A DNA stretch of 16,166 nucleotides. It comes from a virus. Taxonomy: Duplodnaviria; Heunggongvirae; Uroviricota; Caudoviricetes. Numbering within the stretch: position 1 is the stretch's first letter; every line of letters begins with the position of its first letter. A program made the position numbers and the translations under genes. Below the pieces are notes generated by a model, which saw only the letters and a program-made list of their open reading frames with translations, searched no databases and was not told the origin of the DNA. Where the stretch lies: the IMG/VR virus record IMGVR_UViG_2734482786_000005, positions 1 through 16,166 of that record. One strand, written 5' to 3'. Positions 1,369-15,632 of this stretch are shown here, in pieces.

Positions 1369-1444
1369 GCCGATATAGCTCAGTTGGTAGAGCAGCGCAT
1401 TCGTAATGCGAAGGTCGTAGGTTCGACTCCTATTATCGGCACCA
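1369..1444 (+). tRNA. thrW: tRNA-Thr, anticodon CGT (thrW-type)
   Basis: 76-nt sequence GCCGATATAGCTCAGTTGGTAGAGCAGCGCATTCGTAATGCG...GGTTCGACTCCTATTATCGGCACCA with the usual D-loop and T-loop motifs (GGTTCGA), a CGT anticodon in the loop, and a 3' CCA. Lies directly downstream of proA, as at the enterobacterial thrW locus. Confidence 0.93.
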
Positions 1445-1446
1445 TT
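1428..1446 (+). repeat. attL core (3' end of tRNA-Thr)
   Basis: TCCTATTATCGGCACCATT at the tRNA 3' end is repeated as TCCTATTATC-GCACCATT at 15615-15632. Confidence 0.75.
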
Positions 1447-1461
1447 CTAACGTTTCCCCAA

Positions 1462-2825: not shown

Positions 2826-2952
2826 CTGGTTGAGTATACAGTAGTAGACTTTGAGCGATTAAGAAAAGGCTGTGTCTAGGGTCGCTCCCGAAAATCCGTA
2901 CACCTCGGCGGACTGGCACAGCCACTACGGTAGAGGGCGCAGAGGTGTGCGT

Positions 2953-3723
2953 ATGGTTGATATTCATGCCGAATTAAATGAATACAAAAAAGAGTTTATT
3001 TATTTACGTGATTTTCTTGATGATGTATTTAAAGTTGTTGATGCTAATATTTCAGAAGTCATTACCTGGATACTCAAGAGAATAAATACAGTAAATCCAG
3101 GCATTACCCTGTACACAGTAAATTCATTAAATGAGGTGGAGCTTTATTCTTCGGATCCGTTTGAGTGGAGATCTGATTTTAACTTTCTTTATGCAAAACT
3201 GGATACGGTTAGGGAGCGTGGTTGTTTACCTTGTGAGAGGGATGAGAGTGGTTTTCTGGTATCTGGTTATTGGGAAGATGCCGAATTTGAGGCAATGGGA
3301 TTCAGAAGAAATGAAATTTTCGAAATTTTCCCAGAAATCCTTGACGGGTTAATGAATCTGGAATGTGCTGACTCTTCTGAAAATAACGAGGCGCAAGGAA
3401 GCAATATTGAACATAAAGAGTTGCGTACAGATGATGATTTTTTATCCCGAATTGCAATGCTGGAAAAAGAAAATGAATCGTTAAGGGCGCGGGTAAATCA
3501 GTTAGAAAAGGAGCGCCCGATTTTGCTAAAGGCGTATCGTGATGATGACCCATTGTATCTGGCTATCGATATTAGAAACAGAGAGTGGGCCAATTACGAC
3601 CCAGAGAATGATCGCGCAACTAGGGGAAACCAGGGCGCGATTACTACTGAGCTTGAAAAACGAGGTTTTACCTCCCGACAGGCCGCATCTATTGAGCTTG
3701 TCGCCTGTCCTATCAAACGATGA
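2953..3723 (+). CDS. hypothetical protein (AT-rich accessory gene between int and alpA; predicted coiled-coil segment)
   Basis: ORF track gives 2872-3723. I prefer ATG at 2953 (MVDIHAELNEY...) because GAGGTG lies about 7 nt upstream. Sampled lines are clearly AT-rich. Contains an LEKENESLRARVNQLEKE heptad-like stretch. No family recognised. Confidence 0.55.
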   Translation: MVDIHAELNEYKKEFIYLRDFLDDVFKVVDANISEVITWILKRINTVNPGITLYTVNSLNEVELYSSDPFEWRSDFNFLYAKLDTVRERGCLPCERDESGFLVSGYWEDAEFEAMGFRRNEIFEIFPEILDGLMNLECADSSENNEAQGSNIEHKELRTDDDFLSRIAMLEKENESLRARVNQLEKERPILLKAYRDDDPLYLAIDIRNREWANYDPENDRATRGNQGAITTELEKRGFTSRQAASIELVACPIKR

Positions 3724-3763
3724 AGCCTTACCCTAGTGGTATCTCATGTTTTGTTCGCGTCTC

Positions 3764-3840
3764 ACCCTAAGGGTAATCAGACCTCACCCTTAGGGTATTT
3801 TTGTATGCTTTCCCATCAATTTTACTATTACCCTTAGGGT
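3764..3840. promoter_or_regulatory. Three copies of palindromic ACCCTWAGGGT upstream of alpA (putative operator array)
   Basis: ACCCTAAGGGT at 3764-3774, ACCCTTAGGGT at 3786-3796 and 3830-3840, centre-to-centre spacing 22 and 44 bp. A degenerate half-site (TACCCTAGTGGTA) lies at 3729-3741. Confidence 0.5.
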
Positions 3841-3943
3841 AAAAATATTCCCGATTACCATTAGACCTGAGAGCATTAAAATATTCGTTATTTCTGTGCC
3901 ATGATTACCTCGTCAAATTGAGTAGACGTTATGAGGTAAATAT

Positions 3944-4141
3944 ATGTCAAATACGCTTATTCGTTTAACGGAAGTTCAGCGTAGAACTGGATATAGCAAG
4001 GCATGGATTTATCGCCTTATGGGGCAAGGTAAATTTCCTGCATCAGTTAAAATTGGCTCGCGAGCGATTGCTTTCGTTGAGAGTGAAATTGACGAGTGGA
4101 TTAATCAGCGTATTGCGGAATCACGCGGAACAGCTACCTGA
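3944..4141 (+). CDS. alpA: AlpA-family phage/island transcriptional regulator (excision activator type)
   Basis: 65-aa ORF with GAGGTAAAT RBS. The sequence ...RLTEVQRRTGYSKAWIYRLMGQGKFP...VESEIDEWINQR matches the AlpA-family HTH pattern as I recall it (CP4-57 AlpA-like). Confidence 0.85.
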   Translation: MSNTLIRLTEVQRRTGYSKAWIYRLMGQGKFPASVKIGSRAIAFVESEIDEWINQRIAESRGTAT

Positions 4142-4219
4142 TTAAATGGCTACGGGGCCAGAAGTCCCAGCTATCCACCAGCAAATAAAAAGTAACTTAA
4201 TTCGATAGCAGGAGTTTTT

Positions 4220-5020
4220 ATGAAACTGCGAAAAACGCCCGTACAGGGGCAGGGCTTCGTTCGGCCTGAAAACCAGAGCCAACAAAATTTCTGCGAAATT
4301 ATCCCAGTTAGTTCCGGCGTTATTGGCGGGCGTGAAACCAATATTGTTAGCGCCAGAGCGTTGCATAAGGTGCTGGGTGTGAAGCGTGATTTCACAACTT
4401 GGATTAAAGGACGCATTGATGAGTACGGATTTAAAAAGGGCGTGGATTTTGAATTCGTAGAAAATTTGACCTCCCCCAATCCGGTGAGCGCAAAATCTCG
4501 CCAACGTGTAGAGCACGACTACCTGAGCACTATCAACATGGCGAAAGAACTGGCGATGGTCGAGCGCACCGAACAGGGGCGCGCCGTTCGTCAGTACTTT
4601 ATCAAATGCGAGGAGGAGCTACACAAGGTAGCGCCAGTGCGGTCCGCAGTGTTACGCCGGGAACTGAAAGCCCGTATCACAGTTGCCAGCTACTTTAAGC
4701 CAATGTGTGCCGCGCTGGAGGCGTACCGGGCTGAGCTGGGTAAAAACACTCTACAGCACCACTACACCACGGAAGCCAATATGCTGGCGCGTATCGTGCT
4801 GGGTGGCATGACTGCAAAACAGTGGGCGCAGGCGAACGGCATCACAGGCGAACCACGCGACCACATGAGCACGTTGCAGCTTGAGCATCTTTCTTACCTT
4901 GAGCAGAGCAATATCACGCTGATTGAGTTAGGCCAGGACTACCACCAGCGGAAAGCTGAATTAATTCGTCTTTCGCAGCGTTGGTTAGCCCGTCGCATGG
5001 AGGAAAACAGCCATGTGTAA
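4220..5020 (+). CDS. phage-associated protein, tentatively AntA/AntB-type (antirepressor-like) N-terminal domain
   Basis: 266-aa ORF with AGGAG 6-7 nt upstream of the ATG. The stretch SARALHKVLGVKRDFTTWIKGRIDEYGFKKGVDFEF resembles the AntA-type signature as I remember it. The assignment is tentative. Confidence 0.5.
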   Translation: MKLRKTPVQGQGFVRPENQSQQNFCEIIPVSSGVIGGRETNIVSARALHKVLGVKRDFTTWIKGRIDEYGFKKGVDFEFVENLTSPNPVSAKSRQRVEHDYLSTINMAKELAMVERTEQGRAVRQYFIKCEEELHKVAPVRSAVLRRELKARITVASYFKPMCAALEAYRAELGKNTLQHHYTTEANMLARIVLGGMTAKQWAQANGITGEPRDHMSTLQLEHLSYLEQSNITLIELGQDYHQRKAELIRLSQRWLARRMEENSHV

Positions 5021-5479
5021 CGCTCTGACCGTTACAAAAAGAAAAAGCGCCCCGTTGCCGGAGCGCCTTTGTGAACAAGTCGCTTACTGCGCCATATTGC
5101 TTACTGTCTACGAGGCAGATTATAGCGTTGTGGTCGTACAGAGTGAAGGCGCTGATCACTGTTATCACAGTAAGCCAGAAATGCAGAATATTTCGCTGCA
5201 AAATGCCGTTGGCCAAGCTGTCTGGAAAGCAAAAAATACTGCTGGTGGCGCGACTGATGCAATTTTTTCTGGTTGCCAGGTGCTGATCAATCTGATGTCT
5301 GATTTCGTTCTGGATAAAACAAAGGCGACCGCAGAGGGCCGCCAGTGGGAAAGCTACATACTTGAACGCACCACCAACAATGCCACATTTGCGGCTGGTG
5401 GGCAATGTGTCAGCTTTGCACCAATGACTCTAGATTTAACTGAGGGGCATTATGGTGAATATGCTGGCTTGCTGGTGGG

Positions 5480-5680
5480 CTATTCCTGCTCTTTAACATC
5501 GCCATGCCGCGATGTTTTCCAGGTATGTGGCCCTAATTTTGTGCGCCTGTACTCTTTCAGGAACGTCTCAAGGACAAACGCACACGGCGCGAATCTGTCT
5601 GATTCATGCTCGCGCGTCATATTTTTGCGACGTCTCTTCCGGGTTGGTGATGGTATTTTTGTTAACTTTTTATTGTTCAT
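5480..5680 (-). CDS. small basic hypothetical protein (66 aa)
   Basis: Minus-strand ORF. I prefer the internal ATG at 5678-5680 (MNNKKLTKIPSPTRKRRRKN...) because GGAGG lies 7 nt upstream. Lys/Arg-rich N-terminus. Lies downstream of, and co-oriented with, the RHH gene. Confidence 0.35.
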   Translation of the reverse strand: MNNKKLTKIPSPTRKRRRKNMTREHESDRFAPCAFVLETFLKEYRRTKLGPHTWKTSRHGDVKEQE

Positions 5681-5737
5681 AATGGCCTCCTGCATAGCAA
5701 TGCGCCGTAGTTCCTCACACCACGGCACTGATAGTTT

Positions 5738-5917
5738 TTATCCTTTAGATTCTATGCCGCGTTGCTGTAATTCTTTGCGGATTATTCGCTTTATCCAGGC
5801 TGCAAGAGAATCATCGCCGTCCTGTTGTTGTGCTTTTTCCATCTTTTCCCGTAAGTCAGGATCTAAACGGAACTGGAACGGAGGATTACCACGCCTTTCG
5901 CTTTTGTGTGCTGACAC
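5738..5917 (-). CDS. putative ribbon-helix-helix (Arc/MetJ-like) DNA-binding protein, 59 aa
   Basis: Not in the ORF track (under 60 aa, GTG start). My manual reverse-complement translation is VSAHKSERRGNPPFQFRLDPDLREKMEKAQQQDGDDSLAAWIKRIIRKELQQRGIESKG. GAGGTG lies 8 nt upstream of the GTG. The beta-strand then two helices pattern is typical of RHH repressors. It is divergent from the replication operon. Confidence 0.5.
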   Translation of the reverse strand: MSAHKSERRGNPPFQFRLDPDLREKMEKAQQQDGDDSLAAWIKRIIRKELQQRGIESKG

Positions 5918-5944
5918 GTCAATTACACCTCATGTAATGTATTT

Positions 5945-5960
5945 ATGTGTAATTACACAT
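5945..5960. promoter_or_regulatory. Perfect 16-bp palindrome ATGTGTAATTACACAT in the divergent intergenic region (putative operator)
   Basis: Self-complementary 16-mer flanked by further TGTAAT/ATTACA half-sites (5921-5970). Lies between the minus-strand RHH gene and the plus-strand operon starting at 6056. Confidence 0.55.
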
Positions 5961-6055
5961 TACACACAATCAGAGCAAAAAGTAAAGCCCTGCAAGTGTC
6001 GGTACCACTGGCAGGGCCTCTAACCACCAACGATAGCAATATTATCGAGGTAGCT

Positions 6056-6592
6056 ATGAGAAATTATACCCCACACCCGCAAGGGCGGGACTCGCACAAC
6101 CTGAATAAACCCGATGTAAAAAACCTGTTGCTCGCCACTGCCAGCCAGGGCTATGATTTATACGCACCAGCAAAATCTGGTGCCGGGATTGGCGTCCTGG
6201 TATTTAACGAAGCGCACAACACGCGCCCTGCGTGTTTTTTTGTGCCGGATAGTCACACCTTATCAATGGTGGGCTGTATGGGGGCGGAGCAATCCGCGCC
6301 GGGTTCTTCGTTAACCGGTTACGCCAACCCCGTACAGTCCACCGCCAGCGAAATTGGCGTTTCCTGCGGTGGGTTTATTAACCCTAACGAAGAGGCTGCC
6401 AATATGGCTACAGTCCCTACCCTTGTACATTCTCACACTGTCTTTATCTGGCGCTTTATCATCTTTGGCGCGTCAGAATCCCAAATCATCCACGTCACCG
6501 CCTGGACGGAACGCGAAGCGCGTAACCATTGCCCGTCCTGTTGTGTCGCTGTATTCGCCGCCCGTATTCGTCAGGAGGTGCGCCATGATTAA
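6056..6592 (+). CDS. hypothetical protein (first gene of replication-module operon)
   Basis: ORF track gives 5945-6592. I prefer ATG at 6056 (MRNYTPHPQG...) because GAGGT lies about 5 nt upstream and the longer version would overlap the operator region. No family recognised. Confidence 0.5.
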   Translation: MRNYTPHPQGRDSHNLNKPDVKNLLLATASQGYDLYAPAKSGAGIGVLVFNEAHNTRPACFFVPDSHTLSMVGCMGAEQSAPGSSLTGYANPVQSTASEIGVSCGGFINPNEEAANMATVPTLVHSHTVFIWRFIIFGASESQIIHVTAWTEREARNHCPSCCVAVFAARIRQEVRHD

Positions 6593-6878
6593 TCTGTCAA
6601 TCTCTGACCTTAACCGCATTCAGTATGACGAGAAATTTACCGGGAGCGTAAAAGCATTGAGGAAGCAGGCTGGATGTGCACGACTTATTAAGCCGTTAAG
6701 GTGTCATCATGATGATGATCCGCACTTTACCGGACGTATGGTGAATCACTACAAAAAAGGCGTTGAGGTATCCTCTGAACAGCTACGAGCTGGTTGCTGT
6801 TTCGGCACACCACCGGAATTTAGCGAACTGCTGACCCGTTGCGATTACCGGATCATTCAGGGGGAAAGTCATGGGTAA
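6585..6878 (+). CDS. hypothetical protein (97 aa)
   Basis: Internal ATG of track ORF 6354-6878, with AGGAGG 6 nt upstream. The start overlaps the stop of the preceding gene, suggesting translational coupling. MINLSISDLNRIQYDEK... Confidence 0.5.
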   Translation: MINLSISDLNRIQYDEKFTGSVKALRKQAGCARLIKPLRCHHDDDPHFTGRMVNHYKKGVEVSSEQLRAGCCFGTPPEFSELLTRCDYRIIQGESHG

Positions 6879-7071
6879 TCAGCCAGCAACAATGACAATT
6901 ACCCTGAATGTGCCAGATGATTTCACCGGGCGCGTACTGGTTTACCTGGATAAAGGGAAAGTGAAATCACAATGCCGACTGCGAAATAATGAAATAGTAA
7001 GTACGGTAGAAGGCTTTTCTGAACTCTGTATTCGTGCAGGAATAAAACCGGAACTGCTGACAGGAAAATAA
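6871..7071 (+). CDS. hypothetical small protein (66 aa)
   Basis: ORF with a GGGGGAAAG purine-rich RBS. Overlaps the previous stop by 8 nt. Sits in the operon with the primase-like gene. Confidence 0.45.
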   Translation: MGNQPATMTITLNVPDDFTGRVLVYLDKGKVKSQCRLRNNEIVSTVEGFSELCIRAGIKPELLTGK

Positions 7072-7075
7072 AACC

Positions 7076-7366
7076 ATGAAAAAGAAAAATTCTGGCTTTA
7101 CTGCCAGCGGCCTCTCTCGGTCTGCAATTCGCTCTGGCGATATTTACCGCGACACCAGACGTGGGGGACGAGTGGTTATTCGTCACGTTACGCCAGGAAA
7201 TATCACCTACCGCCGTGAGGCTTACGAATATGACTGCGTAATGCCGCGCCGTCAGTTTGAGCGTGATTTTATTCTGGTGGAAAACAAAGAACAGGCAGTA
7301 GCGAGACGTGCAGCCTCGAGTATTAAAAAAATCCGGGCAATGTTGGTAGCTGGGGGTAAGAAGTGA
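7076..7366 (+). CDS. hypothetical protein (96 aa)
   Basis: ORF immediately upstream of the replication protein, with its stop overlapping that gene's GTG start. Basic protein. No family recognised. Confidence 0.5.
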   Translation: MKKKNSGFTASGLSRSAIRSGDIYRDTRRGGRVVIRHVTPGNITYRREAYEYDCVMPRRQFERDFILVENKEQAVARRAASSIKKIRAMLVAGGKK

Positions 7367-9495
7367 AAAACGCGCCGAATTTAAAATATCAGCCGAAGGA
7401 TAAATTCACTGAGGCAATCATTTTTGCCGGGATGGATGCTTACGCTCACGCTCAACACTGGATTGAAAGCGAAGGACGGAAATATGGCGATAGCGTGCCG
7501 CCTGTTTACCTGGGGCCAAAGCAACTGGCAGATCTGGCTAATATCCGCATTGTCGACGATGAACGTCGTTTTGCGCGCGTCTATCTCGCGGGGGAGATCG
7601 AACCAATCCAGATTAATGCTATCGCTGAAAGGCTGGCGCTGGCTGGCGTAAAGGATGCGAAATTATACAAAGGTATCCCTGACCAGGATCCGGAGAACTG
7701 GCGCGACTACCTGCAACGGATCCGTGAACAGGCAGAGCGCGGGGAAACCCTGACTGAAGGAATCGGAATAGCTGGTGGCTCACCCGGTAAAACAGGCCCC
7801 ATGAAACCGCATATTACCGAAAAAGACGGGGCGCTCTGGTATATCGAGCCAATCCCCAACACCAGGGCAGAGGAGATGAATTATAAAGAAACCTGGCTGA
7901 GTGACCGGATGCGCACGGCAGGTATTGGTAATGACGGAAGGGAGGCGTATCTGATTATTGAAATGATCCCGGAAGGGACACAAAAAATTATTTACGAAGC
8001 GATGCCGCGCAATGAAATCGGTATGCCCGCAGGATGGGCGCGATTACGTGGGCGGGGAGTTGCAATCACTACCAGCGCCCATTTATTGAACAAACTGGCG
8101 GAATACCTGCAACGTCATGGAGATCGCACGGTGTGGGAGGTCACATCAACAGCAGGTTGGCATTGTGGAGCCTATGTTATGCCTGATGGCGAGGTGATTG
8201 GTGTGCCTGATCGTCCCGTAGCATTCTGCGGCGGATCTGCCGCCATCAAAGGCTATATTGTCAGGGGCACGGTGCATGAATGGCGAAATAATGTTGCTTC
8301 TCTGATGCGTGGCAATCACTCAATGATGCTTGGGGTGCTGGTCGGGCTGGCAGCCCCGCTAAATTCCCTTGTGGGGGGTAGTTGTTTTGGTATTCATCTT
8401 TTCGCGCAGTCGTCAGCGGGGAAAACCACGACTGTGGAGGCCGCCACCAGCCTTTATGGCGACCCTGAAATGCTTAAACTCTCGTGGGATGCCACCCGGC
8501 ACGGGTTGACAGTGGAAGCCGCTGCACGTAATGACGGTTTTATCCCTATTGATGAAATTGGTCAGGGAGGAAGGGTTAATGACATTGCGCAATCCGCCTA
8601 CAGCCTGTTTAACGGTGTGGGCAGGATTCAGGGGCGCAAGGACGGCGGCAATCGTGCGGTAATGCGCTGGAAAATAGCGGCACTAAGCACCGGAGAAGAA
8701 GATTTTGAAACCTTCCTGTTAAAAGGGGGAATTGCCCCAAAGGCAGGGCAACTGGTGCGACTGCTAAGCATTCCCTTTACCGATACAACGGTGTTTAACG
8801 GTTATGACGATGGTGATCAACATGCCAGGGCCATAAAGCGACTTTCATCAAATTATTGTGGCGCTGCGGGACGTGAGTGGGTGCGCTGGTTATCCGCTCA
8901 CAAGGAGTTGGCTATCAACACCACTTCAGATAAAGAAAATGCCTGGCTGGGAAATCTGCCTGAAAATGCCTCGTCACAGGTAAGGCGAGTGGCATCGCGA
9001 TTCGCCATGCTGGATGCAGCCGGAGAGCTTGCTACCGCAATTACTGGCTGGACAGCTGAAGAATGCCGGGAAGCAACGCAACGGGCTTTTGATGACTGGC
9101 TACAGGATTTCGGGCTGGAAAACCGGGAAAAATATCAGGTCATCAGTCGCGCCCGTGACTTTATTCAGCGCCATGCCCTGAGTCGTTTTCAGCCTTATAC
9201 CTACGGGAAAAGCAATGGGGATATGGATAACCACTATGCATCCCGTATAAGCAATCTTGCAGGCTATCTTGTCAGCGGTAAGCGTGAGGATGGAAAACCC
9301 GAATATCACATTATCCCGTCAGTGTTTGATAGCGAAATTTTATGCGGTATATCCAGGAACTTTGGGTGTCAGGCGCTGGAAGAAGCCGGAATGCTGGTTT
9401 GTGCAGAACCTGGTCGCTGGACATCGAAAACAGTGAAGATTAACGGAACACAGCAGCGATTTATCGTGCTGATTGATCAGGCAGAAGACGAATAG
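7363..9495 (+). CDS. replication protein, primase/helicase-like with SF3-type P-loop NTPase domain (DUF927-like, P4 alpha / PICI Pri-Rep analogue)
   Basis: 710-aa ORF with GTG start at 7363 (the first ATG is further in at 7432). Walker A-like FAQSSAGKTT and a downstream acidic IPIDEIG (Walker B-like) motif. Size and position, immediately upstream of an iteron array, fit a replication initiator. Confidence 0.7.
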   Translation: MKNAPNLKYQPKDKFTEAIIFAGMDAYAHAQHWIESEGRKYGDSVPPVYLGPKQLADLANIRIVDDERRFARVYLAGEIEPIQINAIAERLALAGVKDAKLYKGIPDQDPENWRDYLQRIREQAERGETLTEGIGIAGGSPGKTGPMKPHITEKDGALWYIEPIPNTRAEEMNYKETWLSDRMRTAGIGNDGREAYLIIEMIPEGTQKIIYEAMPRNEIGMPAGWARLRGRGVAITTSAHLLNKLAEYLQRHGDRTVWEVTSTAGWHCGAYVMPDGEVIGVPDRPVAFCGGSAAIKGYIVRGTVHEWRNNVASLMRGNHSMMLGVLVGLAAPLNSLVGGSCFGIHLFAQSSAGKTTTVEAATSLYGDPEMLKLSWDATRHGLTVEAAARNDGFIPIDEIGQGGRVNDIAQSAYSLFNGVGRIQGRKDGGNRAVMRWKIAALSTGEEDFETFLLKGGIAPKAGQLVRLLSIPFTDTTVFNGYDDGDQHARAIKRLSSNYCGAAGREWVRWLSAHKELAINTTSDKENAWLGNLPENASSQVRRVASRFAMLDAAGELATAITGWTAEECREATQRAFDDWLQDFGLENREKYQVISRARDFIQRHALSRFQPYTYGKSNGDMDNHYASRISNLAGYLVSGKREDGKPEYHIIPSVFDSEILCGISRNFGCQALEEAGMLVCAEPGRWTSKTVKINGTQQRFIVLIDQAEDE

Positions 9496-9527
9496 CACAA
9501 CCTACGCTCGCAGAGGGTCAAAAATCG

Positions 9528-9801
9528 CGGGATATGCGGGATATCGGGATATGAAAAATATATTGCAGAAATATCAGTTATTTATGTGTTGTTGTCGTAT
9601 CCCGCTGTATCCCGCCGTATCCCGGTATTTAGGTTTACGAGTGGTTGTAAAACAAACAAAATAACCGTATCCCGGAATGTATCCCGCAATATCTTATTGA
9701 TGCATAAGCAAAAAAAAACTTACCGGGATATGGCGGGATATGAAAAATCACATAACACCATGAAATAAATAAGTTTTTTTGTTCATATCCCGATATCCCG
9801 G
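9528..9801. repeat. Iteron array (putative origin of replication): about 12 copies of CGGGATAT / ATATCCCG in both orientations, with A/T tracts
   Basis: Direct tandem CGGGATAT(G/C) at 9528-9553; GTATCCCG(C/G) three times at 9598-9624 on a roughly 10-bp period; further copies at 9668-9687, 9724-9742 and 9785-9801. Poly-A and poly-T runs at 9710-9718, 9774-9780 and 9805-9826. Track ORFs 9473-9664 and 9586-9768 lie on these repeats and are not believed. Confidence 0.65.
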
Positions 9802-9952
9802 TAAAAAATGTTTTTTTACGCCTTATAGAGTACAGAAAAAAGATTGTTCAAATTTTGTATTACGATTGACTACTGTCAGCCATCCCACCCGGAAAAGGCA
9901 TAAAAGCTGACAGGTAACTGACAATGAGACAGTTTTATTTTTACGTGCCGAT

Positions 9953-10510
9953 ATGACGGCAACAATAATGGGGCAGAGCATGACAAAACTGACCATTAAC
10001 AGAAAACCGAAAGGTATTTACGGCACGCCGCAGAAAACGACGCAGGCGGCACAGAAGCAGGATAAAACCACATCGGCACATAAAGTGATGCCCGGTAACC
10101 AGAAAGCGCAGCAGAAGCCCACAGGGGCGACACCGTGGCGGCATATGACCAAACGCCAGCGCAAAAACCGCAGGCGCGTTAACCGCCTCACTGAGTTGTG
10201 GCCTGACTTATTCTGCAGGGAAGCACCGAAGCCACTTAAGGTGGGGATATTCAATGACCTGGTGCAGGATATCGCCGTCAGGGAGCTGGCATTCGGTCCA
10301 GGGGCATTACGTGCGTCACTGGCATCTTATGCGCAGTCACCGCGCTATTACCGAGCCCTGGTTGCTGGTGGGGTGCGCTATGACCTGAAAGGCCAGCCGT
10401 GCGGCGAGGTGACACCACAGAAACAGAACGAGGCAGAAATGCGGCTGATGGCGCTGAATGAGAAGCGCAAACGTCAGCGCCGGGCAGCAAAGGAGAAAAC
10501 AGGCGCATGA
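9953..10510 (+). CDS. ProQ/FinO-domain RNA-binding protein
   Basis: 185-aa ORF. The segment LWPDLFCREAPKPLKVGIFNDLVQDIA...LRASLASYAQSPRYYRALVAGGVRYDLKGQPCGEV parallels the ProQ N-terminal FinO-like domain as I recall it (PLKIGIF..DLV...R.DL.G.PCGE). The start is uncertain among ATGs at 9953, 9968 and 9980. Confidence 0.7.
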   Translation: MTATIMGQSMTKLTINRKPKGIYGTPQKTTQAAQKQDKTTSAHKVMPGNQKAQQKPTGATPWRHMTKRQRKNRRRVNRLTELWPDLFCREAPKPLKVGIFNDLVQDIAVRELAFGPGALRASLASYAQSPRYYRALVAGGVRYDLKGQPCGEVTPQKQNEAEMRLMALNEKRKRQRRAAKEKTGA

Positions 10511-10794
10511 TTCACGACAGCAAAGCGGAAGCACTGGAAGCGCGTGGTCTGTACCGGAGAGCGGCGGAAAGATGGGCAGAAGTCATAATGCGAGTGGATG
10601 GTGATAAGGCTCGGGAGGAGGCGGCAAAACGTCGCGCGGAATGTATCCGCAAGGCAGCCCGCCCACCAGCAAAGCTGGATAATTTCGAAGAGATGCGCGA
10701 AACCATCAGCCAGGCACATGCTGGTATGGGATTACATCAGCCCAATGGTAAGGCATTCAGGAAATACCCCGGGGCAAAAAATTACAATCCATGA
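10507..10794 (+). CDS. PerC-family transcriptional regulator-like protein
   Basis: 95-aa ORF whose start overlaps the previous stop (ATGA). The N-terminus MIHDSKAEALEARGLYRRAAERWAEV matches my recollection of PerC/Pch-family proteins. Confidence 0.65.
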   Translation: MIHDSKAEALEARGLYRRAAERWAEVIMRVDGDKAREEAAKRRAECIRKAARPPAKLDNFEEMRETISQAHAGMGLHQPNGKAFRKYPGAKNYNP

Positions 10795-10798
10795 GAGA

Positions 10799-10826
10799 GG
10801 CCGGGATTTTACCCGGCTTTTTTGTG
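10799..10826 (+). terminator. Rho-independent terminator-like hairpin after the PerC-like gene
   Basis: GGCCGGGATTTTACCCGGC stem-loop followed by TTTTTTG, immediately 3' of the stop at 10794. Confidence 0.6.
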
Positions 10827-10995
10827 TCAGCAAAAAAGCCCACAGACAGCAGTGTTGCGGGGGGGGGTTTCAGGTGGTTGAAGTCATTGGGAAGAACGTG
10901 AACATTACGCGCAAATGTTTCACAAATTGCAATAAAATGGATTGTTATTTCAGTTTATGCAATCATGAGCATTGCTTTGATCAGGAGAGATGATT

Positions 10996-11163
10996 ATGAG
11001 AAAAGCCAGCGTAAAACCCGTTTTACTCGCTCGTGAGCAGATTGAAGCATTACAGCGCATCCAGGACGAAGAGCGTCAAAAATCTGTGCTTGGTGTGGCC
11101 CCGTCGATTCATGTTATTGCCAGGCAACTGATGGACAAGGCACTTAAAGAGGTGAAACTGTGA
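10996..11163 (+). CDS. small hypothetical protein (55 aa)
   Basis: Not in the ORF track (under 60 aa). AGGAG at 10984-10988, 7 nt before ATG 10996. My translation is MRKASVKPVLLAREQIEALQRIQDEERQKSVLGVAPSIHVIARQLMDKALKEVKL. The stop overlaps the GTG start of the next ORF. Confidence 0.45.
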   Translation: MRKASVKPVLLAREQIEALQRIQDEERQKSVLGVAPSIHVIARQLMDKALKEVKL

Positions 11164-11432
11164 AATTAAATATCAGAGTGGATAAACGCCAGCTATGGCA
11201 GAAAAAAGAGAACAGTGAGGCATTCAGGGATTTGCTGGTGGAAAATCTTCAGCACCGTTTCAGTGGAGAGCTGCCAGACGCGCTGGGGAAAAAACTGGAA
11301 TCTCTGACGGTGGAAATTGGCGATTATGGTTTTGTTGATGTTGAAAGCACGACTGCCAACACAGAAATCGTAAAACAGGTCGTCAACGATGTAATGAAAA
11401 CCACGCTTAGCCAGCCATCCTGGCGTAACTGA
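11160..11432 (+). CDS. hypothetical protein (90 aa)
   Basis: GTG start overlapping the previous stop (GTGA), suggesting coupling. Acidic protein. No family recognised. Confidence 0.45.
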   Translation: MKLNIRVDKRQLWQKKENSEAFRDLLVENLQHRFSGELPDALGKKLESLTVEIGDYGFVDVESTTANTEIVKQVVNDVMKTTLSQPSWRN

Positions 11433-11531
11433 ATCCGCAAGGGGCGGTGATTGCCCCTCTCCGCCATACCCACAACGAATTCCTTTTTCGCATGAAGTGA
11501 ATGTTTATCGTATATGCATGAGGTGAGCCAC

Positions 11532-12056
11532 ATGTTGATGAGTAAAGCCGAATACGCCAAATACAAAGGTGTAAGCCGCCAGACAGTTTACGACTGGATC
11601 GAGAAAGGCGAGGTGGTCATGTCGGGTAAAAAAATTGATATGGAGGCTACAGAGTGGCGAAACAGCCCATCATCACAGGGAAAAGACACTGTTTCTGAAA
11701 TGTGGCCTGAGAGAACGCTGGAAATGACGTGGGGCGAGTTCTGGAAAGCTGTCAGGGACAGAGACGGTAAAATTCCTGCGCCAGTAACGGACGATGACAT
11801 AAAGCAGCGTGTGCAGGATGCAGCCGGGGAATTAGGCTGGGAAGCACACTTTCTTGATGATGGTGCTATCTGCCTTGAGGATGATGAAGGACAGCATTAC
11901 TTTGAACAATACAATTTGCGGGGTAATGCCAGGCTGGCAATTCGTATGCTGCGCTGTGAACTCTGCTATGTTGCAGGTGATTATCCTGATGAACTTGAAT
12001 CATGGAGCGAGGCAGGACTAAACGCCCTGGCTGAATGGGAGAAAACAGGTCATTAA
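11532..12056 (+). CDS. putative packaging-redirection protein with terminase small-subunit-like N-terminal HTH (Rpp-like), tentative
   Basis: Track ORF 11514-12056. I prefer ATG at 11532 because GAGGTG lies 6 nt upstream. N-terminal SKAEYAKYKGVSRQTVYDWIEKGEVV resembles the lambda Nu1 N-terminal DNA-binding segment as I recall it (KKQLADIFGASIRTIQNWQEQGMPV). About 175 aa, acidic C-terminus. Followed by a repeat array. Confidence 0.45.
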   Translation: MLMSKAEYAKYKGVSRQTVYDWIEKGEVVMSGKKIDMEATEWRNSPSSQGKDTVSEMWPERTLEMTWGEFWKAVRDRDGKIPAPVTDDDIKQRVQDAAGELGWEAHFLDDGAICLEDDEGQHYFEQYNLRGNARLAIRMLRCELCYVAGDYPDELESWSEAGLNALAEWEKTGH

Positions 12057-12063
12057 CGGCCGC

Positions 12064-12390
12064 AAAAAGTGTCAAGTTGAGCAGCTTGCAAGGTTGACAC
12101 TTTACACTCTGAACACGAAAAAGTGTCAACCTCGCTGTAAGCCCCGCCATTACTGGTCTTGCGCCATGTTTGCCACATCAAAAGGCCGAAAAAATCGCGA
12201 AAAGTGTCAAGTTGCCATGCTTAGAAATGCTAAGTTTTGTTAAGGTTTTTCGCGGAAAAGTGTCAACTCAACCTAACGGATCTTAACGCTCACGCACAAC
12301 AGCTGCAGCCAACGTGTAAAGGACTGATGCGAAGCAGGGCAGCTGTCAGCCTGTTATGGTTTGTTATGCCTTACCTGGGGAAAGTGTCAA
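12064..12390. repeat. Array of six AAAGTGTCAA motifs (five direct, one inverted), candidate packaging (cos/pac-type) or protein-binding site
   Basis: Copies at 12066-12075, 12120-12129, 12201-12210, 12257-12266 and 12381-12390 on the plus strand, and an inverted copy TTGACACTTT at 12094-12103. Most are preceded by CGCGAAA or CGCGGAA. A partial copy lies at 12437-12452. Confidence 0.6.
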
Positions 12391-12599: not shown

Positions 12600-14099
12600 T
12601 TATACATTGTATGCGAGGTAATCATATAATGCTAAAAGTTTCCGATAATCAGTATGAGATTTGTCCTTAAACTCCCGGACATGTTTTTCTAAATCTTCTA
12701 AGGGTATATGTTCATCATGAGCATTGAAGAAAATAATATTTTGTAATTTGCTATAACTATCAGAATGTTTAGCGTAAATATCTTCAATGGTATGTTCTAC
12801 TATTCTTTGATTCTTGGGTAACCTGGAATAGTTTAGATTTATTAATCTTTTTTGATTTTTCATTAATGATGTTAAGCATTTAACACCTGGGCTGAATTTA
12901 TGAAAAGCATAAGCTGGGAAATATGATCTTTTATTGATGGTGAACTTGTCAAGCAACTCGACAACATGTGATTCCTTATTTGAAATTAGATCAAAATAGT
13001 TTTCCATCATCTCCTGAGGTGTTTGCATGTATATTTTTATAGAGTTAACAGAACCGACGGCTAGAACAAGCTCATCATTTCTGAGTGTCTCCAAATCCCC
13101 AACAAGTTTTACTTTTATGTCTCCACCTTCCTTTATTTTACCAAAGATACTCTCTACTCTGCGTATATCCATTACCGAAACTGGTAAGTGGAGTTGAGCA
13201 AGTTCTTTATATATATCTGAGAAGTTATCTGTAACGATTTTATTAATGCTAATTAACCCTGCATCTTCTACTTCGAGATCGTGAGAGACAATGTTTAAAT
13301 TATCAATACCTTCTTCTCTTTCAATAAGAAGGAAGTTGTTTTTTATTTTTTCTGCAATTTTAGAACGAGGTGGTATGTATGAGAATATTGTTTTTAATAC
13401 TTTTTTTATATTCGGATCACCTATTCTATATCCCATAAATATAATCGGATTATGTATAAACAAGGATAGGAGTTGAGCACGAATTAATTCATATTTTTTA
13501 TCAAAATGAATATAGTCATCACTGGTTATTATTATGGATTCTGGTTTGCTAACGCATCCGTGAATTTTATAAACAGAACCATAAGGATTGCTTAAAAGTA
13601 TATCATTTCCAATAACAGGATTATAACCAATTGCACTTTCGATAAAATTATCATAGTTTGTCGTAATCACAGAGGCAATGTTTTTTGAGGCCTTTACTAA
13701 TTCAGATATTTCATCTTGAACTCCTAATTTTAAATCTGTGATATTAACCACCTGTGAAAGATAGATTTTAAATCTGCTGATATTTGAGGATATATCTTCT
13801 GACTCGTAGTATAAGTCATTGATATATTTGAACTTTCCGTTCCTGTCTGCTTTTAGTGTTGCATCAAAAATTTGCTCTAATTGCGTTGCTACTTTTGGAA
13901 GGTCTACAATACCATCTTTATTGCTGTTTTCTCTGACAAGATCTTTATAGAGTTCATTAGAATTTGTCAGGTCAATACTAATTTTCTCTAAGAGTGCCGG
14001 CCAGCTATAAGAAATTGATAAGTATCTCATGCTGAAACCTGCTCCAACAAATAATATTGGGTGGTTTCTGTAGCCTTTTAGAAAATCCGTTATATTCAT
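12600..14099 (-). CDS. SIR2-like domain protein (putative NAD+-consuming defence effector) with uncharacterised roughly 200-aa C-terminal region
   Basis: 499-aa minus-strand ORF with GGAGG 5 nt upstream of the ATG at 14097-14099. Motifs checked codon by codon: ILFVGAGFS (aa 15-23, DNA about 14031-14057), TTNYD (aa 146-150, DNA 13650-13664), KIHG with His180 (DNA 13557-13565). AT-rich: sampled lines are about 27-35% G+C. Confidence 0.75.
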   Translation of the reverse strand: MNITDFLKGYRNHPILFVGAGFSMRYLSISYSWPALLEKISIDLTNSNELYKDLVRENSNKDGIVDLPKVATQLEQIFDATLKADRNGKFKYINDLYYESEDISSNISRFKIYLSQVVNITDLKLGVQDEISELVKASKNIASVITTNYDNFIESAIGYNPVIGNDILLSNPYGSVYKIHGCVSKPESIIITSDDYIHFDKKYELIRAQLLSLFIHNPIIFMGYRIGDPNIKKVLKTIFSYIPPRSKIAEKIKNNFLLIEREEGIDNLNIVSHDLEVEDAGLISINKIVTDNFSDIYKELAQLHLPVSVMDIRRVESIFGKIKEGGDIKVKLVGDLETLRNDELVLAVGSVNSIKIYMQTPQEMMENYFDLISNKESHVVELLDKFTINKRSYFPAYAFHKFSPGVKCLTSLMKNQKRLINLNYSRLPKNQRIVEHTIEDIYAKHSDSYSKLQNIIFFNAHDEHIPLEDLEKHVREFKDKSHTDYRKLLALYDYLAYNV

Positions 14100-14190
14100 T
14101 TGACCTCCGAGATATATTAGCGGTAATCATTAAAATTTGTAAGAACACAGCTCAAGTATGTATTTAGCTGTAGAGATAAGAATTTACTTG

Positions 14191-15318
14191 TTATTGACCA
14201 TTTGGATAGTAAATTTTCATAAGCCTCTCTTTTTCTTTGTTGAATTCTTTATCAAAATCAATTTTTTTGTCTAAATTAGAATGTAAGTCATTTAACGCTT
14301 TAACAAGAACCCAAGCGCTGTGGTGGATGAATGGGTTTAATCCAATAATGTTTCCTGCAGAATTATCGTCAACTTTCTCAACTGCTAAAATCGCTTGGAT
14401 TTTTTTACAGCTTTCCTGAATATTCCAATCTGAAACATGTAGTAATAATGCAGATAAAGCCATGAGTGGGTTGTTTGCTTTAATAGATGTAGGGGTGTAA
14501 CTAATAATCATACGGAGTCGAGGGTGGTAGTCTCGAATCAGTCTCGCCATTCGAGTAGCTATCTCATATTTTTCGTTGAGAATTGATCTGTCAAATGTTG
14601 ACGTCCCAGAGTCTTTAATTAATATAGTTCTTGCTTTTTTGACTACTGATTTAAGTCTTACATTCCAAAGCTCAGGATTCTCATGACGGTCTAGATAGAA
14701 TTGAGGATGCTTGAAATAAAGAGATTGATATACTTCCTCGTTGATATCGAACCAACTTTTGTTTATGGCGCTGAGATCGACAACATAATTATCATTGTTT
14801 CTCTTATATCTAATCAATGAGGCCTTTGCAAGGTAGATTATGTGAGGGCTTAAATTAAATGTAAAAGTGCCTTTTTCTCTTAAATCTAAGAACCATTGGC
14901 GCATGTTACGTATATCTTCTTGCGTAAAAATCTTCTCCTGAATTCCCGCACAGACCATAAGACCTATTAAGCGTGTCGCTTCAGAACCCGAGCGCATAAA
15001 ATCAATTTGGCCTTCATTTGAAACAACGTTCAACTTATCATCGCCAGTATAAAAATCACAAAATGGGAGGTGAGAGTCTTTACCTAGATTGTCTCGAAAT
15101 GCAAAGTGTGCTTGCTTTACAACTTTGCCGTTACTGAGAGATCTTCCTTCCGAAACGTAATAACCACCAGAAACATTGCATGCCGGGCATTCAACATCCT
15201 CTTTAACAAAATCTCTAAAACTTAGAGAAGGATCTGAGTTGCTACGTTCGAAAAGGTTTTCCAACTGCTTAGCATCCAGCTCACGCTTAAATTTTCTAGA
15301 ATAGGCCGTTATCGTCAT
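14191..15318 (-). CDS. hypothetical protein, partner of the SIR2-like gene (376 aa from the preferred start)
   Basis: Track ORF 14191-15384. I prefer ATG at 15316-15318 (MTITAYSRKF...) because AAGGAG lies 6 nt upstream. Co-oriented with the SIR2-like gene and 91 bp upstream of it. AT-rich. Contains CPACN ... LPFCDF cysteines. I see no Walker A and no TIR-like signature. Confidence 0.65.
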   Translation of the reverse strand: MTITAYSRKFKRELDAKQLENLFERSNSDPSLSFRDFVKEDVECPACNVSGGYYVSEGRSLSNGKVVKQAHFAFRDNLGKDSHLPFCDFYTGDDKLNVVSNEGQIDFMRSGSEATRLIGLMVCAGIQEKIFTQEDIRNMRQWFLDLREKGTFTFNLSPHIIYLAKASLIRYKRNNDNYVVDLSAINKSWFDINEEVYQSLYFKHPQFYLDRHENPELWNVRLKSVVKKARTILIKDSGTSTFDRSILNEKYEIATRMARLIRDYHPRLRMIISYTPTSIKANNPLMALSALLLHVSDWNIQESCKKIQAILAVEKVDDNSAGNIIGLNPFIHHSAWVLVKALNDLHSNLDKKIDFDKEFNKEKERLMKIYYPNGQ

Positions 15319-15531
15319 TTCGGTCTCCTTTCGAAGGGAGCTTAACTTTATCATAGGATGATCATAAAGGGAGCTGTACGGCAAACATCACTAAGGTTGG
15401 GCCTGAAACACAAATTCCCTAAGTGCAATTTTGACGTCTAACTTACTTGATGTGCTTCAAGGCGGTTCTTACATTGTGGTATCAACAACAATAGAATGTT
15501 TTTTAAACAATTTAGATAGCAACAAGCAAGT

Positions 15532-15555: not shown

Positions 15556-15614
15556 AATGATTGCGTAATAGTTTTTTTATATACATATCAATGTGTTGAT
15601 TTCTACAATTTGTT

Positions 15615-15632
15615 CCTATTATCGCACCATTT
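15615..15632 (+). repeat. attR core (degenerate copy of the tRNA-Thr 3' end)
   Basis: CCTATTATC-GCACCATT against tRNA CCTATTATCGGCACCATT. Identical apart from a missing G. Confidence 0.7.

What the first reader, a model, noticed from the sequence alone, without database searches (positions are those of the whole stretch)
9528..9801. Dense CGGGATAT iteron field downstream of the primase/helicase gene: probable island origin
About a dozen 8-9 bp repeats in tandem direct and inverted clusters, some on a roughly 10-bp helical period, are interleaved with A/T tracts that could act as an unwinding element. This is the architecture of initiator-bound origins, and it lies directly 3' of the putative initiator gene.
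Basis: partly seen in the sequence, partly recalled or inferred. Interest (0 to 1): 0.45.

Follow-up and report, generated by a model that had tools for sequence, protein, structure and literature searches.

The report
Replication origin of a phage-satellite island
The repeat cluster is real and is almost certainly the replication origin of a 14-kb phage-inducible chromosomal island in E. coli; it follows a published plan (initiator-binding repeats around AT-rich DNA just after the initiator gene), so it is well supported but ordinary.

Summary
Twelve copies of CGGGATA(T/C) lie at 9528-9800 in five clusters of alternating orientation, separated by AT-rich spacers. The field starts 33 nt after the stop codon of the 710-aa DUF927 gene, and there is no exact copy elsewhere in the window.

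The window is a ~14.2-kb island at tRNA-Thr (thrW) with integrase, AlpA and both att sites. Its E. coli 55989 relative is already listed as a PICI.

The upstream protein is a homologue of SaPI Rep and SCCmec Cch, which are MCM-like self-loading helicases, by both sequence and predicted fold. Its C-terminal domain is a winged helix like the iteron-reading domain of SaPI Rep. It has no recognisable primase domain.

Relatives in six other enterobacterial genera all carry an iteron array in the same slot. The core layout is conserved: 2-3 direct repeats, an AT-rich spacer, then 2-5 inverted repeats, in most loci 52 bp on. The repeat sequence changes with the Rep allele, and the downstream genes differ.

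The experimentally validated EcCICFT073 origin has the same design.

Verdict: this is the Rep-dependent origin of a PICI, a new member of a known kind. No function was tested here. Interest is low to moderate.

The parts
7363..9495 (+). Rep: 710-aa DUF927 initiator-helicase (SaPI Rep / SCCmec Cch family). It has no primase domain. Its N-terminal ~130 aa form a separate shuffled module.
   Evidence: Pfam DUF927 2e-40. PHROG 1139 7.6e-85. phmmer against PDB: 8TCH 1.8e-6, 5DGK 1.9e-6. AF2 model mean pLDDT 78.5. Foldseek: 5DGK 1.8e-20, 8TCH 1.3e-18.
9103..9492 (+). C-terminal domain of Rep (aa 581-710), a predicted winged helix and the inferred iteron reader.
9510..9524 (+). Conserved leader motif GCAGAGGGTCAAAAA between the stop codon and the first iteron. 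Role unknown.
   Evidence: 13 of its 15 columns are invariant in the 8-locus, 4-genus alignment A4.
9527..9552 (+). Iteron cluster 1: three direct repeats (G/T)CGGGATAT, core starts 9528, 9537, 9545. Left arm of the core origin.
   Evidence: The 9537 and 9545 repeats are conserved in all 8 aligned loci apart from one base (TGGGATA in ZF8-1 at 9537); the 9528 repeat varies outside E. coli.
9553..9596 (.). AT-rich spacer 1, 44 bp, a candidate unwinding element or bend. It contains an IHF-like site at 9572-9584 (TATCAGTTATTTA, one mismatch to WATCAANNNNTTR).
   Evidence: GC 0.28. Second least stable 25-mer of the region, 9549-9573. A perfect IHF consensus sits at the same position in 6 related loci. 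The offset from the last '>' core to the first '<' core is 52 bp in most of the relatives compared.
9597..9624 (-). Iteron cluster 2: three inverted repeats (TATCCCG cores at 9598, 9608, 9618) on an exact 10-bp period. Right arm of the core origin.
   Evidence: Invariant in all 8 aligned loci. Expanded to 5 copies in 10-bp steps in strain ZF8-1.
9667..9686 (-). Iteron cluster 3: two inverted repeats (cores 9668, 9680).
   Evidence: Conserved in 6 of 8 loci, with one mismatch in the 9680 copy in a seventh.
9687..9723 (.). AT-rich spacer 2, including an A9 tract.
9724..9741 (+). Iteron cluster 4: two direct repeats (cores 9724, 9734), 10 bp apart.
9742..9784 (.). AT-rich spacer 3. It holds the least stable 25-mer of the field (9764-9788) and is the second candidate unwinding element.
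   Evidence: dG -24.6 against a window mean of -33.1, sd 3.5. GC 0.25-0.28.
9785..9800 (-). Iteron cluster 5: two inverted repeats (cores 9786, 9794).
   Evidence: Conserved in all 8 aligned loci apart from one base (AATCCCG in Salmonella L020 at 9794).
9813..9830 (+). Conserved motif TTTTTACGCCTTATAGAG just after the last iteron pair. Role unknown: possibly a weak or activator-dependent promoter, or a priming or loading site.
   Evidence: 17 of its 18 columns are invariant across 4 genera although the downstream genes differ. No sigma-70 consensus promoter was called here.

Best explanation
The field is the vegetative replication origin (ori) of a ~14.2-kb phage-inducible chromosomal island (PICI) integrated at tRNA-Thr (thrW).

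After induction, the island-encoded Rep (7363-9495) is made. In PICIs of this kind induction runs through AlpA, here at 3944-4141. Rep's C-terminal winged-helix domain binds the CGGGATA(T/C) iterons.

The core origin is the convergent pair of triplets (9527-9552 and 9597-9624) flanking a 44-bp AT-rich spacer with an IHF-like site. Three further iteron pairs and two more AT-rich spacers (9667-9800) extend it.

Rep oligomers assembled on oppositely oriented iteron sets distort and melt adjacent AT-rich DNA. Rep then loads itself as an MCM-like hexameric helicase. Because this allele has no primase domain, priming would be left to host DnaG.

Shown here: the repeats, their layout, their conservation, their co-variation with the Rep allele, and the family and fold of Rep. 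Inferred by homology and precedent: binding, melting, self-loading, which spacer melts, and the roles of IHF and the accessory clusters.
For: Anatomy: 12 iterons in 5 alternating clusters with AT-rich spacers, starting 33 nt after the rep stop codon.

Comparative:
- The same slot holds CGGGATA arrays in Serratia, Klebsiella and Salmonella.
- It holds TGGGATAA in Proteus (GGGATAA in Citrobacter), GGTGGATA in a 72%-identical E. coli allele, TGGGACAAC in a 47%-identical allele and GTTGGTTCA in EcCIMP1.
- The core geometry is the same in all of them, while the downstream genes vary: ProQ, SSB, HTH, ShlB, capsid.
- Iteron cores are invariant at 68/84 columns against 43/189 for the rest of the field.
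- One strain added two iterons in exact 10-bp steps.

Precedent: the validated EcCICFT073 pri-rep-ori has ~11 GGTAGA(C/T)A iterons in alternating clusters directly 3' of its rep.

Element: integrase, AlpA, attL/attR, ~14 kb. The 55989 relative is listed as a PICI.
Against: There is no functional test of binding or replication for this element or for any DUF927-type enterobacterial island that I could find.

The conservation statistic uses related sequences, and the alignment is anchored on the repeats themselves.

The layout (5 clusters, 3 AT-rich spacers) is more elaborate than the published description of two sets flanking one AT-rich region, so the part beyond 9624 may do something other than initiation.

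AT-richness is not unique to this field; the defence-gene region at 12.5-14.7 kb is as unstable.

DUF4222 genes also accompany most of these rep genes, so co-variation alone does not single out Rep as the binder.
Confidence: 0.85

Rival explanations
1. The repeats are operator sites for transcriptional control, either autoregulation of rep or gating of the downstream ProQ/PerC operon. They would be bound by Rep or by another island protein, with no origin function.
For: The last iteron pair abuts a conserved promoter-like motif, TTTTTACGCCTTATAGAG at 9813-9830. There is no terminator between rep and the downstream genes. Iterons in plasmids often double as operators (general knowledge).
Against: The array travels with rep, not with the downstream genes, which differ between loci. 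No sigma-70 consensus promoter is called in the field. The fixed 52-bp convergent geometry around AT-rich DNA and the helicase-initiator next door match origins, including the tested EcCICFT073 one. A regulatory side-role is compatible with the origin reading rather than a replacement for it.
Confidence: 0.05
2. The field is a relic. It was a true origin in ancestry but is now non-functional in this island, which may be defective or immobile.
For: Some relatives are clearly decayed. STEC383 keeps the iteron field but has lost rep. Many PICI-like elements lack packaging modules and are scored as possibly defective (PMC11773190).
Against: In this window rep is a full-length ORF and 99% identical to a protein cluster with 330 member sequences. 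All 12 iteron cores are perfect. The integrase and AlpA genes and both att sites are present.
Confidence: 0.06
3. The repeats are a packaging (cos/pac) or partition (centromere-like) site bound by a terminase small subunit or a ParB/ParR-type protein.
For: Short repeat arrays also characterise cosB/pac and parC/parS sites (general knowledge).
Against: The island has no par genes and no lambda-type cosN. A separate repeat field (AAAAGTGTCAA x6, 12064-12390) next to an HTH gene with weak terminase-small-subunit similarity is a better packaging candidate. The CGGGATA array is tied to rep across elements whose late regions are unrelated.
Confidence: 0.03
4. The origin is host DnaA-dependent and the repeats are DnaA boxes.
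For: The GGTGGATA-type allele's iteron (TTATCCACC) matches the DnaA box TTATCCACA at 8/9 positions.
Against: The window's iteron matches the DnaA box at only 5/9 positions. There is no DnaA box with one mismatch or fewer in the field. Iterons differ widely between alleles, which fits an allele-specific reader and not a host protein.
Confidence: 0.01

Closest known systems
EcCICFT073 pri-rep-ori (E. coli PICI; Fillol-Salom et al. 2018, PMC6092414)
   Same: The synteny is the same: DUF4222 gene, rep, intergenic ori, then SSB/ProQ/PerC-type genes. The ori lies directly 3' of rep. It has ~11-12 short iterons in clusters of alternating orientation with AT-rich DNA between them. The Rep N-terminal ~130 aa are homologous (47% identity). 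Its rep-ori was shown to drive plasmid replication.
   Different: Its helicase is of the D5_N/DUF5906/Pox_D5 (SF3, P4-alpha-like) type, not DUF927/MCM-like (relatives; only aa 1-131 align). Its iteron is GGTAGA(C/T)A. Its cluster spacing differs. The window's origin has not been tested.
SaPI origins (SaPIbov1, SaPI1, SaPI5) with Rep or PriRep
   Same: The Rep family and fold are the same, including the C-terminal winged helix. There are 6-12 iterons immediately downstream of rep, an AT-rich centre, and at least two iterons on each side pointing in opposite directions (PMC9371898).
   Different: SaPI iterons are 5-6 nt, whereas here the invariant core is 7 nt within an 8-10-nt repeat. Here there are five clusters and three AT-rich spacers rather than two sets and one centre. 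The host is Gram-negative, there is a candidate IHF site, and this allele has no primase partner or fusion.
EcCIMP1 (thrW PICI of E. coli MP1, mobilised by phage Kapi1; PMC11773190)
   Same: It uses the same attachment site (proA-tRNA-Thr) and has the same AntA/Ash/DUF4222 genes and a DUF927 Rep. It has the same core ori layout, 3 direct repeats, an AT-rich spacer, then 3 inverted repeats, right after the gene.
   Different: Its Rep carries an N-terminal Zn-ribbon/Toprim primase and is only 42% identical. Its iteron is GTTGGTTCA, and the inverted copies are ~21 bp apart. Its origin was not analysed in that paper as far as I could find.
Satellite phage P4 ori/crr with alpha protein
   Same: It is a satellite replicon in which a multifunctional helicase-initiator binds short 8-bp iterons through a C-terminal DNA-binding domain (own knowledge; summarised in PMC6092414). 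The island also carries P4-like C4/CI-type RNA, Icd-like and Ash features.
   Different: P4 alpha is a Toprim primase plus a D5-type helicase. P4 needs two separated sites (ori and crr), not an array abutting the gene. Its iteron is TGTTCACC.
Iteron plasmids (pSC101, R6K, RK2, P1/F type)
   Same: Repeated initiator sites lie next to an AT-rich unwinding element, IHF is often involved, and iteron number can modulate control (PMC4980987, listed, and own knowledge).
   Different: Plasmid Reps are small WH1-WH2 proteins that recruit host DnaA and DnaB. Here the initiator is itself the helicase, no DnaA box is present, and the iterons are shorter (8-9 bp against 17-22 bp).

Membership tests
PICI/SaPI-type replication origin (Rep-ori module) | The origin lies immediately 3' of the replication initiator gene. 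| tested here: met
   The first iteron core starts 33 nt after the TAG stop at 9493-9495. The position is the same in 13 related loci.
PICI/SaPI-type replication origin (Rep-ori module) | There are six to twelve short iterons, with at least two on each side of an AT-rich region and in opposite orientation. | tested here: met
   12 iterons. The arrangement 3 '>' / 44-bp AT-rich spacer / 3 '<' is followed by 2 '<', 2 '>' and 2 '<' with two more AT-rich spacers.
PICI/SaPI-type replication origin (Rep-ori module) | The initiator is a Rep helicase of the SaPI Rep/Cch (MCM-like) kind with a C-terminal winged-helix origin-binding domain. | tested here: met
PICI/SaPI-type replication origin (Rep-ori module) | Iterons are cognate to the Rep allele, so specificity differs between alleles. 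| tested here: met
   Iterons found: CGGGATAY, GGTGGATAY, TGGGATAA, TGGGACAAC and GTTGGTTCA with different DUF927 alleles, and GGTAGACAG with D5-type Reps. This is correlation only.
PICI/SaPI-type replication origin (Rep-ori module) | Rep binds the iterons, and rep plus ori drive autonomous replication. | not testable with these tools
   This needs EMSA or footprinting and a conditional-replicon assay. It has been done for EcCICFT073 and SaPIs but not for this type.
Gram-negative PICI (the element as a whole) | A ~10-15-kb island with integrase and specific att sites, an AlpA regulator, rightward unidirectional core genes, a rep-ori module, and no phage structural or lysis set. | tested here: met
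   Integrase 1611-2825, AlpA 3944-4141, attL 1428-1447 and attR 15614-15632, ~14.2 kb. The core genes from 1611 to 12056 are on the + strand. The E. coli 55989 relative is listed as 'PICI'.
Gram-negative PICI (the element as a whole) | A helper phage induces excision, replication and packaging. | not testable with these tools
   This has been shown for EcCICFT073 and EcCIMP1. The helper for this island is unknown, and no lambda-type cosN was found.
P4-type ori/crr | Type I iterons TGTTCACC bound by an alpha primase-helicase (Toprim plus D5-type helicase), with separate ori and crr sites. | tested here: not met
   The iteron is CGGGATAY. Rep is DUF927 and has no Toprim. There is a single array abutting the gene.
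Iteron-plasmid oriV (RepA/pi/TrfA type) | A small WH1-WH2 initiator, 17-22-bp iterons, and DnaA boxes beside the unwinding element. | tested here: not met
   The initiator is a 710-aa helicase. The iterons are 8-9 bp. There is no DnaA box with one mismatch or fewer in the field.

The most novel reading that the evidence does not exclude
The DUF927-type enterobacterial satellite origin may be a distinct, more elaborate origin design than the published 'two sets around one AT-rich region'. It would have three parts. The first is a rigid core: convergent iteron triplets, the first inverted core usually 52 bp after the last direct core, around an IHF-bent spacer. The second is a set of accessory iteron pairs. 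These end on a conserved promoter-like motif, so Rep occupancy could couple replication to expression of the downstream ProQ/PerC cargo, or act in copy control. The third is specificity that can be re-set by a few changes in the Rep C-terminal part: CGGGATA becomes GTGGATA between Reps that are ~88% identical beyond aa 180. That would create incompatibility or immunity groups among co-resident satellites. In addition, the shared ~130-aa N-terminal module, which replaces the primase in two unrelated helicase classes, could be a new adaptor that recruits a host or helper primase.
Probability: 0.2. Interest if true: 0.45.

Novelty: new member of a known kind. Interest (0 to 1): 0.25.

Why it matters
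The result fixes the origin and the probable initiator-DNA code for a widespread family of thrW-type phage satellites in E. coli, Salmonella, Klebsiella and Serratia. These satellites carry virulence regulators (PerC) and interchangeable anti-phage defence cargo.

Knowing the origin and its allele-specific iterons allows several things:
- design of minimal replicons;
- prediction of which satellites can cross-activate or exclude each other;
- reading sequencing-depth peaks after induction;
- direct testing of how an MCM-like self-loading helicase recognises DNA in a genetically tractable Gram-negative host.

It does not change the current picture of how PICIs replicate.

Tried and rejected
(1) N-terminal domain of Rep as the iteron-specificity determinant: rejected. 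E. ruysiae L007 shares 86% identity over aa 1-129 but has a D5-type helicase and GGTAGACAG iterons. CFT073 and L004 have similar N termini but different iterons.

(2) N-terminal domain as a degenerate Toprim: not supported. Profile-profile hhalign against the Toprim of the primase-fused relatives gave probability 0.3%.

(3) The 'VCAEPGRW' stretch of the C-terminal domain as the specificity determinant: not supported. Salmonella alleles with 'TRQESDRL' or 'TRQEPGRL' still have CGGGATA iterons.

(4) Sigma-70 promoter or intrinsic terminator within the field: none on the + strand, and counts are at chance.

(5) Known RNA family in the field: only sub-threshold hairpin-like hits to miRNA models, caused by the inverted repeats.

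(6) DnaA boxes: none in the field.

(7) Lambda cosN: no match better than chance.

(8) The short ORFs 9473-9664 and 9586-9768 are treated as spurious. RefSeq annotates nothing there in 26 genomes. The conservation pattern follows the repeats and includes a 20-bp insertion.

(9) My first guess at the CFT073 coordinates hit a lambdoid prophage instead. The island was found in the next stretch.

(10) The search for related loci patterns fell on the N-terminal module, so the call returned a mix of DUF927-type and D5-type Reps. This was useful, but it was not the clean family sample I intended.

Full report
OBSERVATION. The sequence at 9528-9800 holds exactly twelve copies of CGGGATA, seven as CGGGATAT and five as CGGGATAC. 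They form five clusters of alternating orientation:
- three direct copies, cores at 9528, 9537 and 9545;
- three inverted copies on an exact 10-bp period, at 9598, 9608 and 9618;
- two inverted copies at 9668 and 9680;
- two direct copies at 9724 and 9734;
- two inverted copies at 9786 and 9794.

No exact CGGGATAT occurs anywhere else in the 16-kb window. The top 7-mer count of 12 in the 457-bp intergenic region exceeded all 2000 dinucleotide-preserving shuffles, whose mode was 3 and maximum 10. It also exceeded every other 457-bp window of the sequence, where the maximum was 6.

The clusters are separated by AT-rich stretches. GC is 0.25-0.28 in 60-bp windows. The least stable 25-mers are 9764-9788 and 9549-9573, about 2.3 sd below the window mean stability. 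Other parts of the window are equally AT-rich, so this feature alone is not distinctive.

The field starts 33 nt after the stop codon of the 7363-9495 gene.

CONTEXT. The window runs proA, tRNA-Thr (1369-1444), integrase (1611-2825) and AlpA (3944-4141). Next come AntA, an Ash-like region, a DUF4222 gene, the 710-aa DUF927 gene and the repeat field. After the field come ProQ/FinO, PerC, small ORFs and an HTH gene, then two leftward genes and a truncated LysR gene.

The tRNA 3' end (1428-1447) is repeated at 15614-15632 with a one-base deletion. This bounds an island of ~14.2 kb.

The same island occurs in 26 of 5426 complete E. coli genomes, including 55989 and the O104:H4 outbreak lineage. 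The 55989 copy (296286-311648) is listed as a 'PICI' in the supplement of Fillol-Salom et al. 2018. EcCIMP1, an experimentally mobilised PICI, sits at the same proA/tRNA-Thr site and shares gene families with it.

THE NEIGHBOURING PROTEIN. Pfam sees only DUF927. By sequence it matches two solved proteins: SaPIbov1 Rep (8TCH, 'pathogenicity island protein') and the SCCmec helicase Cch (5DGK).

An AlphaFold model built on 57 homologues has mean pLDDT 78.5. Foldseek returns Cch (E 1.8e-20), SaPIbov1 Rep (1.3e-18), the SaPI5 primase-helicase and MCM proteins.

In SaPIs the C-terminal winged helix of Rep recognises 6-12 iterons that lie immediately downstream of rep. They surround an AT-rich centre, with at least two iterons per side in opposite orientation. 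Rep is a self-loading helicase (PMC9371898).

About 920-aa relatives carry a Zn-ribbon plus Toprim at the N terminus. This protein has instead a ~130-aa alpha/beta module that shows no profile similarity to that Toprim.

COMPARATIVE TEST. I looked at the DNA 3' of relatives of this gene.
- E. coli strains with a 72%-identical allele have about twelve GGTGGATA(Y) repeats in the same five-cluster layout.
- A 47%-identical Escherichia allele has twelve TGGGACAAC repeats.
- Serratia, Klebsiella and three Salmonella loci, with Rep 76-81% identical, keep CGGGATA. One of them, the Klebsiella locus, is a 950-aa primase-fused form in a different island.
- Proteus uses TGGGATAA and a short Citrobacter array has GGGATAA cores.
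- EcCIMP1 has three GTTGGTTCA repeats, an AT-rich spacer, then three TGAACCAAC repeats.

In all of them the first module is the same. There are two or three direct repeats at about +34 to +57 from the stop, an AT-rich spacer, and then two to five inverted repeats. The first inverted core begins 52 bp after the last direct core in most loci.

The genes downstream differ: ProQ, SSB, an HTH gene, ShlB, capsid genes. The array therefore belongs with rep and not with what follows it.

In an alignment of eight CGGGATA-type regions from four genera, 68 of 84 iteron-core columns are invariant against 43 of 189 other columns (Fisher p 8e-20). Two caveats apply: the sequences are related, and the repeats anchor the alignment.

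Strain ZF8-1 has expanded the inverted cluster from three to five copies in exact 10-bp steps. This is what slippage in a functional, non-coding repeat array looks like, not a coding region.

The centre of the first spacer carries a perfect IHF consensus (WATCAANNNNTTR) in six loci and a one-mismatch version in the window at 9572-9584.

KNOWN PRECEDENT. I located EcCICFT073 in the CFT073 genome. Its rep-ori was shown to drive plasmid replication in a rep- and ori-dependent way (PMC6092414).

The 288-bp intergenic region after its rep holds about eleven GGTAGA(C/T)A iterons in clusters of alternating orientation with AT-rich DNA between them. The synteny matches the window: a DUF4222 gene, rep, ori, then SSB and PerC.

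Its helicase is of another class. Relatives with the same iterons are D5_N/DUF5906/Pox_D5 proteins. Only the N-terminal ~130 aa are shared with the window's Rep, at 47% identity.

The window therefore shows the published PICI origin plan, attached to a Rep that is closer to the Gram-positive SaPI Rep than the tested E. coli example is.

MECHANISM.
- Shown: the repeat anatomy, its conservation, its co-variation with the Rep allele, and the Rep family and winged-helix fold.
- Inferred from homologues: Rep's C-terminal winged helix binds the iterons. Oligomers on the convergent sets distort the intervening or adjacent AT-rich DNA, perhaps with IHF. Rep then loads itself as a hexameric helicase, and host DnaG primes because this allele lacks a primase.
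- Not known: which AT-rich spacer melts, and what the three accessory clusters (9667-9800) do. Extra loading sites, copy control, or coupling to the conserved motif TTTTTACGCCTTATAGAG at 9813-9830 are all possible.

RIVALS.
- A purely transcriptional operator array is unlikely. The array follows rep across different downstream genes, and no consensus promoter is present. A regulatory side-role cannot be excluded.
- A packaging site is unlikely. There is no lambda-type cosN. A second, separate repeat field next to an HTH gene with weak terminase-small-subunit similarity is a better candidate.
- DnaA boxes are absent.
- No Rfam family matches the field.
- The field could be a relic in a defective island, but the intact rep, the perfect iterons and the intact int, AlpA and att sites argue against that.

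VERDICT. The finding is the Rep-dependent origin of a PICI: a new, untested member of a known and published kind. My confidence that it is the island's origin is about 0.85. Interest is low to moderate (0.25). The value lies in the precise map, the allele-specific iteron series and the link to the SaPI Rep family, not in any new principle.

Noticed in passing
window 12064-12390 (also L001 13362-13570): There is a second repeat field: six copies of AAAAGTGTCAA(C/G), five direct and one inverted. It lies immediately after the 180-aa HTH gene (11514-12056), which has weak terminase-small-subunit and excisionase PHROG hits. It is conserved in E. coli 55989. It could be the island's packaging (cosB/pac-like) or another protein-binding site.
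   Followed up: partly
window 7363-7752 (Rep aa 1-130); L016 42241-42633; L007, L008, L011-L014: The N-terminal ~130 aa of Rep form a module shared at 40-86% identity by two unrelated helicase classes in enterobacterial satellites, DUF927/MCM-like and D5/SF3-like. The module occupies the place of the Zn-ribbon plus Toprim primase found in ~920-aa relatives. The predicted fold is alpha/beta, there is no profile similarity to Toprim, and the function is unknown.
   Followed up: partly
window 9510-9524 and 9813-9830: Two non-iteron motifs flank the field: GCAGAGGGTCAAAAA and TTTTTACGCCTTATAGAG. Both are nearly invariant across Escherichia, Serratia, Salmonella and Klebsiella (13/15 and 17/18 columns) although the neighbouring spacers diverge. 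Neither matches a consensus promoter or terminator.
   Followed up: partly
window 12600-15384 (- strand); L001 13969-15925: The right end of the island is a variable cargo slot. Here it holds a SIR2-domain protein matching the PADLOC candidate system PDC-S25 (E 1.9e-139) plus a 397-aa partner. In E. coli 55989 the same slot holds an AAA ATPase plus a DUF4435 protein. This looks like an anti-phage defence hotspot.
   Followed up: partly
window 2869-2936, 6164-6240, 6262-6349: Rfam hits above gathering score: int-alpA RNA, isrK and C4 antisense RNA. The last two lie inside the long 'Ash' ORF region, upstream of where E. coli 55989 annotates an Icd-like gene. This suggests a P1/P4-style RNA-based immunity or antirepressor control module.
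   Followed up: no
window 1428-1447 and 15614-15632; 1462-1482/1526-1546; 1560-1579/15534-15553: The att core TCCTATTATCG(G)CACCATT is present at both ends, giving an island of ~14.2 kb. There are also two kinds of flanking repeats that look like integrase or excisionase arm sites: GTCTACTAAAGTTC(A/C)CTGAAA twice near attL, and GGGGGTACTT(A/T)TGGGGGTAT once near each end.
   Followed up: partly
L002 (E. coli STEC383, NZ_CP091026.1 2697607-2704061), 3029-3300: This is a degraded copy of the island at a different chromosomal site, between abgR and smrA. It keeps all 12 iteron cores and the PerC gene but has no annotated rep gene, so it is an orphan origin.
   Followed up: no
L004 3335-3625 (E. 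coli 2013C-3033): The iteron of the 72%-identical Rep allele, read on the other strand, is (A/T/G)TATCCACC. It matches the DnaA box TTATCCACA at 8 of 9 positions, so twelve near-DnaA boxes sit in one satellite origin.
   Followed up: no
L008 (Kluyvera ascorbata) downstream of 3992: A D5-type Rep with the shared N-terminal module is followed by GGTGAACA / GTATTCAC repeats. GGTGAACA is the reverse complement of the P4 type I iteron TGTTCACC, as I recall it from the P4 literature.
   Followed up: no
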